Shown one piece after another: positions 24,163-30,262 of a stretch of DNA of 64,000 bases; the stretch's first letter is position 1; each line of letters starts with the position of its first letter. Source of the DNA: Octopus sinensis (Eukaryota); assembly GCF_006345805.1 (NCBI RefSeq), contig NC_043003.1:13640001-13704000 (forward strand), in the 5' to 3' direction. The translations under genes were made by a program, and so were the position numbers. The notes beneath the pieces were generated by a model. The model was not told the origin of the DNA, ran no database searches, and worked only from the letters and a program-made list of their open reading frames with translations.

Positions 24163-24356
24163 TAGATCGGTAGCCACTACACACAGTTTTTTTCTCTCTT
24201 TGTTTCTCTCCTTGTTTTTTTCTGTGTCCTTTTCTGTAGAGGAGCGTAGGCTCGAAACGTAAAAGACTTTTTCAATTCCCGAGCATTATACAATACATCT
24301 GTTTGTTTTGTACACCACCTGTCTTCGTCTTTTGTTTTTTCGTGAACTCTCCCCCT
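24163..24356 (+). mobile_element. Penelope-like ~190-bp repeat (family H2) with a hammerhead-like motif
   Basis: Starts GATCGGTAGCCACTACAC, ends GTGAACTCTCCCC; motif TTT-CTGTAGA-G-GAGC-GTAG-GCTC-GAAAC-GTA-AAAG at ~24231-24265; lies in (TATC)n. Confidence 0.65.
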
Positions 24357-25939
24357 ATCTTTCTGTATATCTATCTATCTATCTATCTATCCATATATCT
24401 CTATCTATTTGTCTATCTACCTACCTACACATTCAAAGAAACACAACTAATGCTAACAACTTCTGATTGCAAAAAAAAAACTACATCCAGCTCAGCCAGT
24501 ATTCTTACAGCACTTACAAGCAAAAGACTAAAGAGATTCCCTTTCCTTTTCAGGAGGCAGCGAAGACTATCCAGAACGGGATATAATTTGTTTTAGTTTT
24601 TATCTAAACAGCAAACAAATCCACGATAAGAAGTCGAAAGAATGTAGTTTCTGTTCATTTTGTCATGAGATGAATTTGCTGTAAGCTATAACAAATTACC
24701 TTACGACATACGGACATACGTCACACGCTTTCTTTATCTATTACTGTGTTGTTGCTCTCAAGAAAGCAAGATATCTTCTTAATGAGATGTATGGTCTGAA
24801 AAGCTGAATCTGTAGTACATACTGCAGCATATATGGTTTCTGGTTTATGGTTGTATAGTATATTGTTTTACAGCTTATTTTTCCCTGGTGTCATTATTGC
24901 TAATGGAGTTTGGAGTTGGTTTAGAAAGCGTACTGGAGATTAAGATTACAAAATTATTAGATTTAAAAGATATAAGTTCTATGCATACTTGTTGCAGCCG
25001 GCAATAACAGACATGTTGAAGAATACGTACTAGGGAAAGAAAACAACAAACAAAAAACAAATAAAGCAAAACAGAAAAAAACAACACTATTGTCCAATGA
25101 TTTTTGTTGAACGGTAAAAGAAAGAAAAGAAAAAAATATGTAAAAAAAACAACAAAAAACAAGCTATGTCCATGTGATGAAATACTGAATGCTAATCGCA
25201 CATGTACCACATCTCTCTAATACATTATATACACATGTGTAGCTTATTCTATAATTAGATAGATTTAACCCTTTAGTGTTCAGATTACTCTGTTAAATGT
25301 AATACTTTTTCACTCAAATTGTTTTGAATTAATCATGCATTATGTTTATAGCTTTGAAGTTTCAATGATGTGATTGTTTATTTTTAGAATGTCAATGTAG
25401 GTTAGGTGTGAGAGGCTAGATATGGCCAGTTTGAATATAAAATATGTGGAATATCTGGGCCAGATATTTTAAAGGGTTAAAATGGCAAAAAATAAGAAGT
25501 GAGTATCAATCTTAGAGTTTGCTGGTGTATATAAAGATGCAAGCGTGGCTGTATGGTTAAGAAATTTGCTTCTCAACTGCACAGCTTTGGGTTCAGTCCC
25601 ATTGCGTGGCACATTGGGCAAGTGTCTTCAATGATATTCTTAGGCTGACCGATGCCTTACAAGAGAATTTGATTGATTGAAACTGAGAGAAAAACATGAC
25701 AAAAAAGTCATTTACACCAATGGTTCTCAGCCATTTTTTTTCTTTTTCACTAATGGACCGCTTTGGTTACTATTTTATTCAAATTCCACTGAGGGTGACT
25801 TTGCTCTTCATCCTTCTGGGGTCGATAAAATAAGTACCAGTCGAGCACTGGGGTTGATGTAATCAACTATTGCCCTCCCCAAGAATGTCAGGCCTTGTGC
25901 CTATATTCACAGGACACTCATGTGTATATATTTCTTTTC

Positions 25940-26278
25940 TTTTTTTTCTTTTGTTTGTTTCAGTCATTTAACTGCGGCCATGCTGGAGCACCACCTTTAG
26001 TCGAATAAATCAACTCCAGGGCATATTCTTAGTAAGCCTAGTACTTATTCTATCAGTCTCTTTTGCCAAACCGATAAGTTTGTCAAGCAATGGCGGGGGG
26101 ACAAACACAGACACAAACAAACATATATATACAACGGGCATCTTTACAGTTTCCATCTACCAAATCTACTCAGCTTGAGACTATAGTAGAAGACACTAAC
26201 TCAAGGTGCCACGCAGTGGGACTGAACCAAGAACCATGTGGTTGGCAAGCAAGCTACTTACCACACAGCCACCCCTGC
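25940..26278 (-). mobile_element. Family A SINE, internally deleted
   Basis: Head and tail match the consensus. Confidence 0.75.
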
Positions 26279-26287
26279 ATGATAGAT

Positions 26288-26448
26288 AGATAGCCACTAC
26301 ACATTCTTTATTTTCTCTCCTTGTTCCTTTCTATGGAAGAGCATAGGCTCGAAACGTAAAAGACTTTTTCACTTCCCAAGCGTTATACTAATACATCTGT
26401 TTGTTGTCTACACCACCTGTCTTCGTCTTTTGCTTTTTTGTGAATTCT

Positions 26449-26452
<4 letters not shown>
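26288..26452 (+). mobile_element. Family H2 repeat
   Basis: CTTT-CTATGGA-A-GAGC-ATAG-GCTC-GAAAC-GTA-AAAG; followed by (TA)n. Confidence 0.65.
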
Positions 26453-26496
<44 letters not shown>

Positions 26497-27128
26497 ATAT
26501 ATATATAACCATGCATATAAACATGCATACACACATACATTAAAATATATAGTGAAACATGCAGACAGATATAAATGTCAGTAATCTAACATACATATAT
26601 GAGTCTTTTCAGAGTTGCTTAACCTGCTAGAAATAATATGCAAATCTCAACCGCATCAGAACCCCACCCTCAAATAAAGGAAGGACATGATGGCCATGGC
26701 TTGAAAGCCTTATAGCATAGATCTTTTATCTTTTACTTGTTTCAGTCATTGGACTGCAGCCATGCTGGGGCACTGACTTGAAGAATTTTTAGTCGAAGGA
26801 GTTGGCCCCAGTATCCATTTTTTAAAGCTTGTTACTTATTCTACTGGTGTCTTTTGCTGAACCGCTAAGTTACAGAGATGTAAAAACAGACCAACACCAT
26901 TTGTCAAGTGGTAGTGGTTAACAAAAACACACATATATATACACATACATACATACACACACATATATATATACACATACATACACACATACATACACAC
27001 ATATACATACACACATACATATACATACACACACACACACACACATACATATACATACACACACACACATACATATACATACACACACACACATACATAT
27101 ACATACACACACACACATACATATACAT

Positions 27129-27179
<51 letters not shown>

Positions 27180-27845: not shown

Positions 27846-28826
27846 AGGGTAGATGATGTGACTAGGGATATGAAGGCTGGGAAAGCAGCTGATCCGTCAG
27901 TGATAGTTGCAGAGAAGCCTAAAATATTTGGTGGAAGCAGGGCAATATGCTAGTCACTTGAATAGTTAATCAAATAATATACAAGGAGCCATACCTAATG
28001 ACTGGTATAGCAGCAAACAGTATCATCACAAACTGTTACAAAAGTAAAGGAGATGCGATAGAAAGAGAGAGATAGACTATGGAGGCATGAAATTTTTGGA
28101 TCAGGTTATAAAAGACATGAAAGGTTGTGGAAAAATGGAAAAATTGATTAGGAACAGGATTGGCCTCAATGAAATACAATTTGGCTCTTGTGTCAGGAAG
28201 GGGTGCTCATCAATGCTTTATATTCTTAGTGAGACTACGGCAGAAAAATTACTTAGTGAAAAGTAAGACCCTAAAACTTTAACATTTTTTTAGTGGCCAC
28301 CCAATCTAAGAGTGAGGAACCTTCTCAAAGACCTTGATGAATGCTAAGTGAGACTACTGCAGAAAAATTACTAAGTGAAAAGTAAGACCCTAAACTTAGC
28401 ATTCATCAAGGTCTTTGAGAAGGTCCCTCACTCTTAGATTGGGTAGCAACTAAAAAAAATGTCAAAGGTAGATGAATAGCTTGTGAAAGCAATACAAGTC
28501 ATGTTCAATTGTGTGTTCAGCAATGAATTTAGTATGCACGCAGGAGTATATCAGTATACTCAGTTCTCAGTTCCCTCCTGCTTATTACAGTTCTCCAAAC
28601 CATAACAGAGGAGTCTGAGACTGGCTGTCCAATGGGAACATCTCTGTGTAGATGACCTAGTTCTCATTGCTGAAAGTGGAGTTGATTTAGAGAAGAAATT
28701 CCAGATAGGGAAGCAAAATGTGAAATTGAGATGCCTCAACATAAACTTAGCAAAGACTAAAGTAAATAAAAAAGAAGACAGGATTCAGTTACCATTTGGG
28801 GGAAATGGCCAAGACTGAACTGATAT

Positions 28827-28864
<38 letters not shown>

Positions 28865-29600
28865 AAAGAAAATAAGACACAAACTATATATGGTGTTTCC
28901 AATATAAACTATGGATGCACAGAAGTTGTAGCAGCATCAAAGCAGGTTCAGAGAACAGGTAGTCTACTGGAAGAGCAAATGGGAAACAGATTAACAGATT
29001 ATCCCAGATGACTGGAAGGCTCTCTAGAATCATGTGACAGCTTTTGGTGACCTACTTGGCTGCAGTTATGTTCTCTAAGTGTAGTAGCCAGAGTAAGCAA
29101 GCTGGAAAAAAGTCCAAGGATATATTACCTCTACTGGTAACAAAAAGGGTCTCTTTCAGGGCAAAGGGCAGATGGTATAATGCTGCTTATGTATGATGTG
29201 AGATGTTGCATGAGAGAAGGGAGAGAGAGGGCCTTGAATGCCAAAGATTTGCAAAGACAAGACAGAAGTGAAACAAGTGGGTTACATTCTATATGCGATT
29301 TTAGTAGTGTGAATGATGACAAAGTACAAATGAATCGAGAGGGAGGAACTGGATGCCAAAGGAATGAAGATGCAGTGTGTAGAGAGAAGCTAGCACTGGT
29401 ACAAGGTATATGATGTCTATAGACACATGTATGAAGTGTTGAGCACTCAAAGGGGGAGACCAAGGAAAACTCATGGTGAACTAATGAGGACAGATCTTAA
29501 GATGTTGCAACTCACGAAGGAAGTGATGAGATGACAAAGAACTGTGACTGACGATTGGTGAATATGCAGTGCGAGAGAGGATCCAACCACTTGCACAAGC
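27846..29600 (+). pseudogene. Degenerate RTE-clade LINE reverse transcriptase
   Basis: Hand-translated motifs DMKAGKAADPS, IPNDW, YKSKGDA, DYGGMKFLDQV, EIQFG, LCVDDLVLIAES (decayed YADD); many frameshifts. Confidence 0.8.
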
Positions 29601-29671
29601 TTGGAGAAACAAATTTCTCTGAGAAGCTCCTGCAGTTTCTGCATGGGGCAAAGCATTTCCAATATATATTC

Positions 29672-30037
29672 CTGTGGCTGTGTGGTAAGTAGCTTGCTTC
29701 TCAACCACATGGTTCTGGGTTCAGTCCCAATGTGTGGCACCTTCAGCAAGTGTCTTCTACTATAGCCTAAGCCTTGCAAGTGGATTTGGTAGACAGAACT
29801 GTAAAGAACTGTGTGTGTGTATATATATATATATATACACGCATATATGTATATACACATATATGCATGTTTTTGTGTTTATCCCCCAACTGGTGTTGGT
29901 GTGTTTACATCCCCATAATTTAGTGATCCAGCAAGACATTGCCAGACCAAATGCTAGATTAAAAAAAAGGTCAATTTGCTTGACTTAAAACCCTTTAAGG
30001 TGGTGCCCCAGTATGGCCAGTCTATTGACAGTAACAG
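29672..30037 (+). mobile_element. Family A SINE, diverged
   Basis: GTGGCTGTGTGGTAAGTAGCTTGC...GGTTCAGTCCC head and tail remnants. Confidence 0.75.
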
Positions 30038-30040
30038 ATG

Positions 30041-30072
<32 letters not shown>

Positions 30073-30076
30073 CCAT

Positions 30077-30262
30077 GATAGATCGGTAGCAACTACACAT
30101 TCTTTACTTTCTCTCATTGTTTCTTTCTGTGTTCCTCTCTGTGGAAGAGCGCAGGCTCGAAACGTAAAAGACTTTTTCAATTCCCAAGTGTTATACAAAA
30201 ACATCTGTTTGTTTTCTACACCACCTGTCTTCGTCTTGTGTTTTTTTTTTGTGAATTCTCCC
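30077..30262 (+). mobile_element. Family H2 repeat
   Basis: CTGTGGA-A-GAGC-GCAG-GCTC-GAAAC-GTA-AAAG at ~30139-30170; between (TA)n tracts. Confidence 0.65.

What the first reader, a model, noticed from the sequence alone, without database searches (positions are those of the whole stretch)
24163..30262. Family H2: three ~190-bp repeats with a hammerhead fold whose core has U at the normally invariant A6
Seen: copies at 24163, 26288 and 30077 share a U-rich stem I arm (weaker in 30077), then CTGTAGA / CTATGGA / CTGTGGA, an extra purine, stem II GAGC/GCTC (intact in all three while the loop varies GTAG/ATAG/GCAG), then GAAAC-GTA-AAAG. The U at position 6 is in all copies, so it is a family trait rather than random decay. 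Stem III has no loop (ACGU palindrome), so it could form only in a dimer. Inference: either a natural variant-core hammerhead or a family that spread after losing catalysis.
Basis: partly seen in the sequence, partly recalled or inferred. Interest (0 to 1): 0.8.

Follow-up and report, generated by a model that had tools for sequence, protein, structure and literature searches.

The report
Jumping-gene hammerhead with an altered core
These three repeats are broken-off ends of a jumping gene with over 14,000 copies in this animal genome, whose hammerhead-shaped RNA motif has U in place of a normally fixed A yet stayed unchanged while the surrounding sequence drifted, so it is likely a still-working but slow self-cutting RNA that standard searches would miss.

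Summary
The three repeats are 5'-truncated 3' ends (pLTRs) of a ~4.3-kb Penelope-like retroelement (RT, Cys linker, GIY-YIG). The motif is the known PLE minimal hammerhead except for U at position 6. U6 is family-wide: 14,495 of 15,046 exact genomic matches, both pLTRs of three full-length copies, and the major letter in runs of four other organism labels. Across five subfamilies whose flanks differ by 10-40%, N7 takes all four bases and position 17 takes C, A or U but no subfamily has G; U6, the rest of the core and stem II stay fixed. That is the hammerhead pattern of constraint, so 'spread after decay' is unlikely. Cleavage itself is untested: mutations here lower activity in vitro, and PLE insertion in vitro does not need cleavage. 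The window copies are decaying relics; their loop variation is decay, not tolerance. No natural U6 core appeared in my paper searches; a natural C6 is in print. The scan earlier noted a different PLE core variant (U3-A8) in another genome. Verdict: new variant of a known kind.

The parts
24162..24353 (+). 5'-truncated 3' end (pLTR) of a Penelope-like element, A7/A17 subfamily, between CTAT microsatellites
24230..24265 (+). Minimal hammerhead motif of copy 1: stem I 24230-33/24262-65, core 24234-40 with U6 at 24237, stem II 24242-53, predicted scissile bond after 24261
   Evidence: position numbering inferred from the hammerhead consensus
26281..26451 (+). 5'-truncated pLTR, G7 subfamily, followed by (TA)n
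26327..26362 (+). Motif of copy 2: U6 at 26334, private G5>A (likely dead), loop G>A at a CpG, predicted scissile bond after 26358
30072..30262 (+). 5'-truncated pLTR, G7 subfamily, inside (TA)n
30135..30170 (+). Motif of copy 3: U6 at 30142, private stem I mismatch and loop T>C, predicted scissile bond after 30166; predicted to misfold
15068..15169 (-). Fourth, shorter copy of the same family (youngest U7 subfamily, 92% to L101); begins about 10 nt past the predicted cut and lacks the motif

Best explanation
The repeats are 5'-truncated ends of a Penelope-like retrotransposon whose pLTR carries a minimal hammerhead with U6, and this motif was held fixed on the element's active lineages, so it is likely a slow, dimer- or protein-assisted self-cleaving ribozyme that trims tandem precursor RNA. 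Shown: the element's anatomy (two pLTRs 4.27-4.36 kb apart around an RT/Cys-linker/GIY-YIG frame), U6 in all sampled subfamilies, constraint on the core and stems with N7 and H17 free. Inferred: a read-through transcript of a tandem copy holds two motifs; their ACGU palindromes pair to give stem III; the cut falls after GUH; reverse transcription starts 110-140 nt downstream at (TA)n targets and usually stops early, leaving solo ends such as the three here, which then decay neutrally. Every copy that spans the site came from RNA not cut there, which fits a slow or late-acting ribozyme.
For: PLE identity: EN and RT remnants upstream of two family copies; full-length tandem copies L101, L102, L106; RVT_1 E 2.7e-8 and 1.2e-7, GIY-YIG E 0.009-0.03, below Pfam's cutoff; CX4CxxC linker, YIDD, YIGQT. 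U6: 14,495 of 15,046; the 551 others are 65 C, 28 A, 7 G in the 100 listed, over all four N7 states, i.e. decay. In copies found by the EN protein, by flank or as bystanders, U6 in 69 of 76 and 73 of 79. Subfamily majorities differ at 74 of 154 flank columns but at 5 of 36 motif columns: N7, H17, the outer stem I base and two CpG artefacts (Fisher p 1e-4). On a flank-only tree of 79 such copies: 5 shared changes at N7, 5 at H17, none at C3, U4, G5, U6, G8, A9, G12-A15.1, U16.1; 7 in the other 34 columns (5 at CpG, 2 at the outer stem I base) against 34 expected (p 8e-6). C or G at 17 in only 257 of 14,495; 45 of the 100 listed are G, about 0.8%. Stem I outer pair is C-G here and G-C in the A6 sister family. 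In four runs of organism labels B-E only N7 and H17 show other letters at 3% or more within the motif. Literature: natural C6 hammerhead cleaves slowly and well in Mn2+ (PMC3088659, PMC7151607); an anole PLE hammerhead cleaves only with its protein (PMC11167929).
Against: No cleavage was measured. In a full pairwise mutagenesis all single and double changes in the CUGA turn except the 3-8 swap had low activity (PMC9901934, passages); A6C cut Mg2+ activity by orders of magnitude (PMC7151607). PLE insertion in vitro did not need cleavage and no RNA-seq ends mapped to the site (PMC11167929); Naiad PLEs spread without hammerheads (PMC8557442). With 30-nt flanks the hammerhead stems are not the predicted minimum-energy fold and the double hammerhead (-4.5 to -13.9 kcal/mol) is far above the dimer minimum. 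No subfamily-level compensatory change inside the U6 family was shown. No intact ORF copy was found.
Confidence: 0.55

Rival explanations
1. U6 switched catalysis off, but the hammerhead fold is still selected as a non-cutting signal, e.g. a binding site for the element's protein or an RNA dimerisation site, which keeps the RNA intact for reverse transcription.
For: Position 6 changes lower activity (PMC9901934, PMC7151607); cleavage is not needed for insertion in vitro (PMC11167929); loop II and stem II are fixed in sequence, as a protein-binding site would be; the family outnumbers the strict-pattern A6 hammerheads (15,046 against 12,937, different patterns); no clear 5'-end pile-up.
Against: Both catalytic guanines and every other core position stay fixed, and position 17 avoids G through at least three states; a pure binding role would not obviously need all of them, though folding alone might.
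Confidence: 0.3
2. The constraint is on something that overlaps the motif: a splice acceptor (pyrimidine tract then YAG), a promoter or DNA-level site of the pLTR.
For: In the A7 and old subfamilies the core reads pyrimidine tract + CTGTAG, a good acceptor; in Drosophila Penelope an intron ends at the hammerhead (PMC4209133).
Against: N7 left A several times, destroying that AG, while U6 stayed; the free positions are exactly 7 and 17; no joint at this site among the laid contigs (311 bases only). Coding constraint is excluded: the U7 subfamily has TGA right after U6 in the one frame that reads through in L106, and the main frame ends far upstream in many copies.
Confidence: 0.08
3. A dead ribozyme carried along: U6 arose once in a master copy and the motif is neutral since.
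For: Individual copies decay in the motif at 2.7% per site in young copies, as expected for relics; the five GGGC/GCCC 'compensated' copies do not exceed the 8 expected by chance.
Against: Master lineages changed about half of the flank columns but none of the invariant core positions; gene conversion would have levelled N7 too, yet N7 tracks the flank tree.
Confidence: 0.07

Closest known systems
Minimal hammerheads of metazoan Penelope-like elements (Cervera and De la Pena 2014, PMC4209133; Lunse et al. 2017, title seen in a reference list only)
   Same: Place in the pLTR, U-rich 5' arm, short stem I, extra base between 9 and 10.1, G10.1-C11.1, palindromic 15.2-16.2, no loop III, thousands of solo copies from truncated elements.
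   Different: U at position 6; their consensus is CUGANGAH and the core variant they describe is U3-A8. Stem II here is only 4 bp with a fixed GUAG loop.
Natural C6 hammerhead of phage Bcep176 (PMC3088659, PMC7151607)
   Same: A natural pyrimidine at position 6; slow in Mg2+, active in Mn2+.
   Different: One phage sequence with C; here U, in more than 14,000 copies, with evidence of long-term selection; activity untested.
Neptune/Nematis-type EN+ PLEs (PMC8557442)
   Same: RT, CX2-5CxxC linker, C-terminal GIY-YIG with CCHH, partial tandem and inverted pLTR structures, insertion into (TA)n.
   Different: Clade within PLEs not resolved here (no reference proteins for a tree).
Non-LTR retrozymes (bioRxiv 10.64898/2026.07.22.740005)
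   Same: Type I hammerhead, origin from PLE pLTRs.
   Different: The window copies are dispersed independent insertions of two subfamilies, not head-to-tail tandem units.

Membership tests
EN+ Penelope-like element (Neptune/Nematis type) | [quoted passage not shown] | tested here: met
   RVT_1 above cutoff; GIY-YIG E 0.009-0.03, below cutoff; YIDD, YIGQT
EN+ Penelope-like element (Neptune/Nematis type) | CX2-5CxxC linker and CCHH motif | tested here: met
   CSRPRCRTC and CISCSLC; histidines read from the translation
EN+ Penelope-like element (Neptune/Nematis type) | Direct pLTRs from partial tandems, inverted partial copies, microsatellite targets | tested here: met
   L101, L102, L106; inverted partial pLTR in L016; (TA)n flanks
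EN+ Penelope-like element (Neptune/Nematis type) | Placement in Neptune or Nematis by RT phylogeny | not tested
   No reference PLE proteins fetched
PLE minimal hammerhead | Core C3 U4 G5 A6 N7 G8 A9 ... G12 A13 A14 | tested here: not met
   U at 6 in 14,495 of 15,046; all other core positions match
PLE minimal hammerhead | N7 free; NUH cleavage triplet | tested here: met
   N7 A29 T20 G16 C11 and H17 A29 T26 C18 G1 gap2 of 76; G17 about 0.8% genome-wide
PLE minimal hammerhead | Stems I and II, extra base 9/10.1, G10.1-C11.1, palindromic 15.2-16.2 | tested here: met
   (stem II probability 0.92-1.0 in four of seven U6 copies with 12-nt flanks)
PLE minimal hammerhead | Covariation of the stems within the family | tested here: inconclusive
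   Stem I G-C/C-G swap between the A6 and U6 families; the stem II A-U/G-C rows were picked by a pattern that demanded them and do not exceed chance
PLE minimal hammerhead | Self-cleavage (as a dimer) | not testable with these tools
   No raw RNA reads offered; genomic 5'-end test inconclusive
Non-LTR retrozyme | Head-to-tail tandem non-coding units each with a hammerhead | tested here: not met
   Dispersed copies 2.1 and 3.8 kb apart with unrelated spacers; family continues into a coding PLE

The most novel reading that the evidence does not exclude
A natural, functional hammerhead with a CUGU turn: a large PLE lineage shared by several related species fixed U6 long ago and kept a working ribozyme, with the loss of A6 made up by the fixed GUAG loop, a metal ion or the element's own protein. 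CUGANGA-based surveys would then have missed one of the largest hammerhead families of these genomes.
Probability: 0.5. Interest if true: 0.75.

Novelty: new variant of a known kind. Interest (0 to 1): 0.6.

Why it matters
A6 is treated as invariant and is written into the search descriptors used for PLE hammerheads, so this family is invisible to them. If it cleaves, the catalytic core tolerates more than mutagenesis of minimal constructs suggests and some in vivo factor rescues it. If it does not, it shows that PLEs keep the hammerhead fold for a non-catalytic job. Either result bears on the open question of what PLE hammerheads are for, and the A6 sister family with the same stem II in the same genome is a ready control.

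Tried and rejected
Rfam scan of the window: 0 matches. Compensated stem II copies as proof of covariation: 5 found, 8 expected by double transition; three have C17 and two sit basal to the old clade, so a small GGGC/GCCC lineage is possible but not shown; a flank search from L149 gave 2 matches, itself and one copy without the motif. Cleavage fossil in 5' ends: hand counts from the first 100 of 153 rows and 100 of 106 rows, indel-shifted full copies and internal duplications dropped; 32 against 18 at matched TA sites (not significant), 66 over 6 positions against 34 over 7 (p 0.005, but the test window is AT-rich and favours microhomology); among A17-type copies 11 T|AAA, 7 TA|AAA, 5 |AA (70 loci fetched, 40 of them hand-picked). 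Inconclusive. Coding constraint on U6: rejected. RNA evidence: no RNA holder listed on record and only contigs offered. Thermodynamic folding does not favour the double hammerhead, also not for the A6 sister copy, so it does not discriminate. No PLE ORF remnant in the window. Papers not held: Lunse 2017 and a review sought for A6 data. Perreault Fig. S7 text was unreadable; one Cervera supplement file was not searchable; either could hold a U6 example.
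Full report
Observation. Their parts are as described: cores CTGTAGA, CTATGGA, CTGTGGA, one extra purine, stem II GAGC/GCTC, GAAAC-GT-A and AAAG. Copy 2 also has G5>A and copy 3 a stem I mismatch. A fourth copy at 15169-15068 (minus) starts past the motif. Rfam finds nothing at gathering score. The genome is 2.72 Gb; its repeats look like an octopus's (recalled, not tested).

What the repeat is. Two of the 30 closest genomic copies run on upstream into GIY-YIG and RT remnants. 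A search with that 82-aa piece gave 150 scored matches of 11,985 candidates. Among 20 long-frame loci fetched, L101, L102 and L106 are full-length elements with two direct pLTRs, the motifs 4.27, 4.27 and 4.36 kb apart, U6 in both. The frame has RVT_1, a weak GIY-YIG match below cutoff, YIDD, a CX4CxxC linker and YIGQT, the marks of Neptune/Nematis-type PLEs, which prefer microsatellite targets (PMC8557442, passages). None of the three has an unbroken frame. The window holds no ORF remnant: its copies are solo 5'-truncated ends, copy 1 of the A7 subfamily, copies 2 and 3 of G7. Cervera and De la Pena (PMC4209133, parts 1-2 of 4 and supplement passages) describe this motif class: U-rich arm, extra base between 9 and 10.1, G10.1-C11.1, palindromic 15.2-16.2, dimer action, low activity.

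U6 is family-wide. A pattern with positions 6 and 7 free has 15,046 matches, control 0; 551 have another base at 6, in the 100 listed 65 C, 28 A, 7 G, over all N7 states. So about 1% have A, which is the decay level. Sister families with A6 exist: 12,937 matches of a canonical pattern against 30 control, one family with the same stem II, a pyrimidine triloop and EN remnants 43-52% identical. With all published PLE consensus motifs at A6, U6 is most likely derived (inference).

U6 lineages are under hammerhead-type constraint. A profile from seven natural copies gave 192 distinct hits in the loci then held; 165 with score at least 75 and covering the motif were aligned, 27 partial, weak or A6-family hits dropped. 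To avoid choosing by the core I used copies found by the EN protein, by a downstream flank (30 of 40 loci) or met as bystanders; the window's own copies and L003 (3 of 76, 4 of 79) are not strictly blind. Five groups (11, 8, 8, 21, 23 copies) differ at 74 of 154 gap-free flank columns, pairwise 10-40%, but at only 5 of 36 motif columns: N7, H17, the outer stem I base, and two CpG positions in the oldest group. On a flank-only tree, shared changes number 5 at N7 and 5 at H17, none at U6 or any other invariant core base, and 7 in the other 34 columns against 34 expected (with all 161 copies 6 and 4). The flank rate is measured on the columns that built the tree, which may inflate it; one search does not have that flaw. 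Position 17 passes through C, A and U; C or G occurs in 257 of 14,495, G in 45 of the 100 listed. The outer stem I pair is C-G here and G-C in the A6 sister. In contigs of four runs labelled organisms B-E, laid at 80% likeness, the only other letters at 3% or more inside the motif are at N7 and H17, and depth peaks over the motif, most sharply in organism E; contigs drop rare variants and the labels are coded. The youngest copies are nearly identical (0-6 differences in about 210-240 bases), so the U6 element moved recently.

What speaks against catalysis. Roberts et al. (PMC9901934, passages) found low activity for all single and double CUGA-turn mutants but the 3-8 swap. A natural C6 variant cleaves below 0.1 per minute (PMC3088659, section 8 and passages) and prefers Mn2+ (PMC7151607, parts 1-2 of 4). 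An anole PLE hammerhead cleaves only with its protein, cleavage is not needed for insertion in vitro, and no RNA-seq ends mapped to the site (PMC11167929, parts 1-2 of 4). Naiad PLEs thrive without the motif (PMC8557442). Folding gives stems I and II for short stretches of L101, L106 and copy 2, but alternative folds with longer flanks, and the double hammerhead is never the minimum, nor for the A6 copy. Compensated stem II copies do not exceed chance.

Mechanism. Shown: anatomy, family-wide U6, constraint pattern. Inferred: tandem read-through RNA holds two motifs that pair through ACGU and cut slowly after GUH, probably helped by the element's protein or a metal ion; reverse transcription starts downstream of the motif at (TA)n targets, mostly on uncut RNA, and stops early, giving solo ends that decay (2.7% per motif site in 43 young copies). 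I put this at 0.55, a selected non-cutting fold at 0.30, an overlapping splice or promoter signal at 0.08, a neutral relic at 0.07.

Novelty. Searches for hammerhead with A6U, for CUGU-type core strings, for octopus PLE hammerheads and for variant cores in pLTRs (listings seen) gave no natural U6 hammerhead. Lunse 2017 was not held, and two supplements could not be read, so a prior mention is not excluded. The scan has no notes on this genome and one on another genome about the published U3-A8 variant. It is a member of the PLE class, works most likely like a PLE minimal hammerhead, but fails the strict core definition: a new variant of a known kind.

Noticed in passing
window 23560-23885 (core at 23746, +): Inverted-repeat element with a canonical A6 hammerhead (CTGAAGA, 5-bp stem II, GAAAC), probably a tail-to-tail pLTR of another PLE family.
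   Followed up: no
window about 2900-3083 (-) and 56880-57062 (-): Two copies of the A6 sister pLTR family (stem II GAGC/GCTC with TCC loop); both window copies have U4>C.
   Followed up: partly
L125, L130, L131, L135, L137, L139, L144, L146, L147, L191-L200: A second, unrelated repeat ends in CTGTTGAG-GTAG-CGAA-CCAC-GAAACGT-G: U6 again, but with a stem II mismatch and G17, preceded by TATAAA and two more CTGAWGA motifs. Possibly an independent degenerate hammerhead.
   Followed up: partly
window 30072-30088 and loci of the G7, A7, C7, U7 subfamilies: A tiny GCC-ATG-nnn-nnn-CGn-TAG frame 50-80 nt upstream of the core recurs across subfamilies.
   Followed up: no
motif position 7, all subfamilies: N7 changed 5-6 times on shared branches, well above the flank mean of 1.0-1.4 per column; unexplained hypervariability.
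   Followed up: partly
L252 (G000:C3:48592804-48592949): A 56-bp tandem array whose unit begins at the predicted cut site of the motif.
   Followed up: no
window 60221 (+): CTGAGGA-C-stem-GAAAC, another hammerhead-like string from the generic scan.
   Followed up: no
window 35798-36253 (+), 28000-29560 (+), 6526-6757: LINE-like RT C-terminal fragment, a second decayed RT-like stretch, and a 22-bp tandem repeat of 10.5 copies at 97% identity.
   Followed up: no
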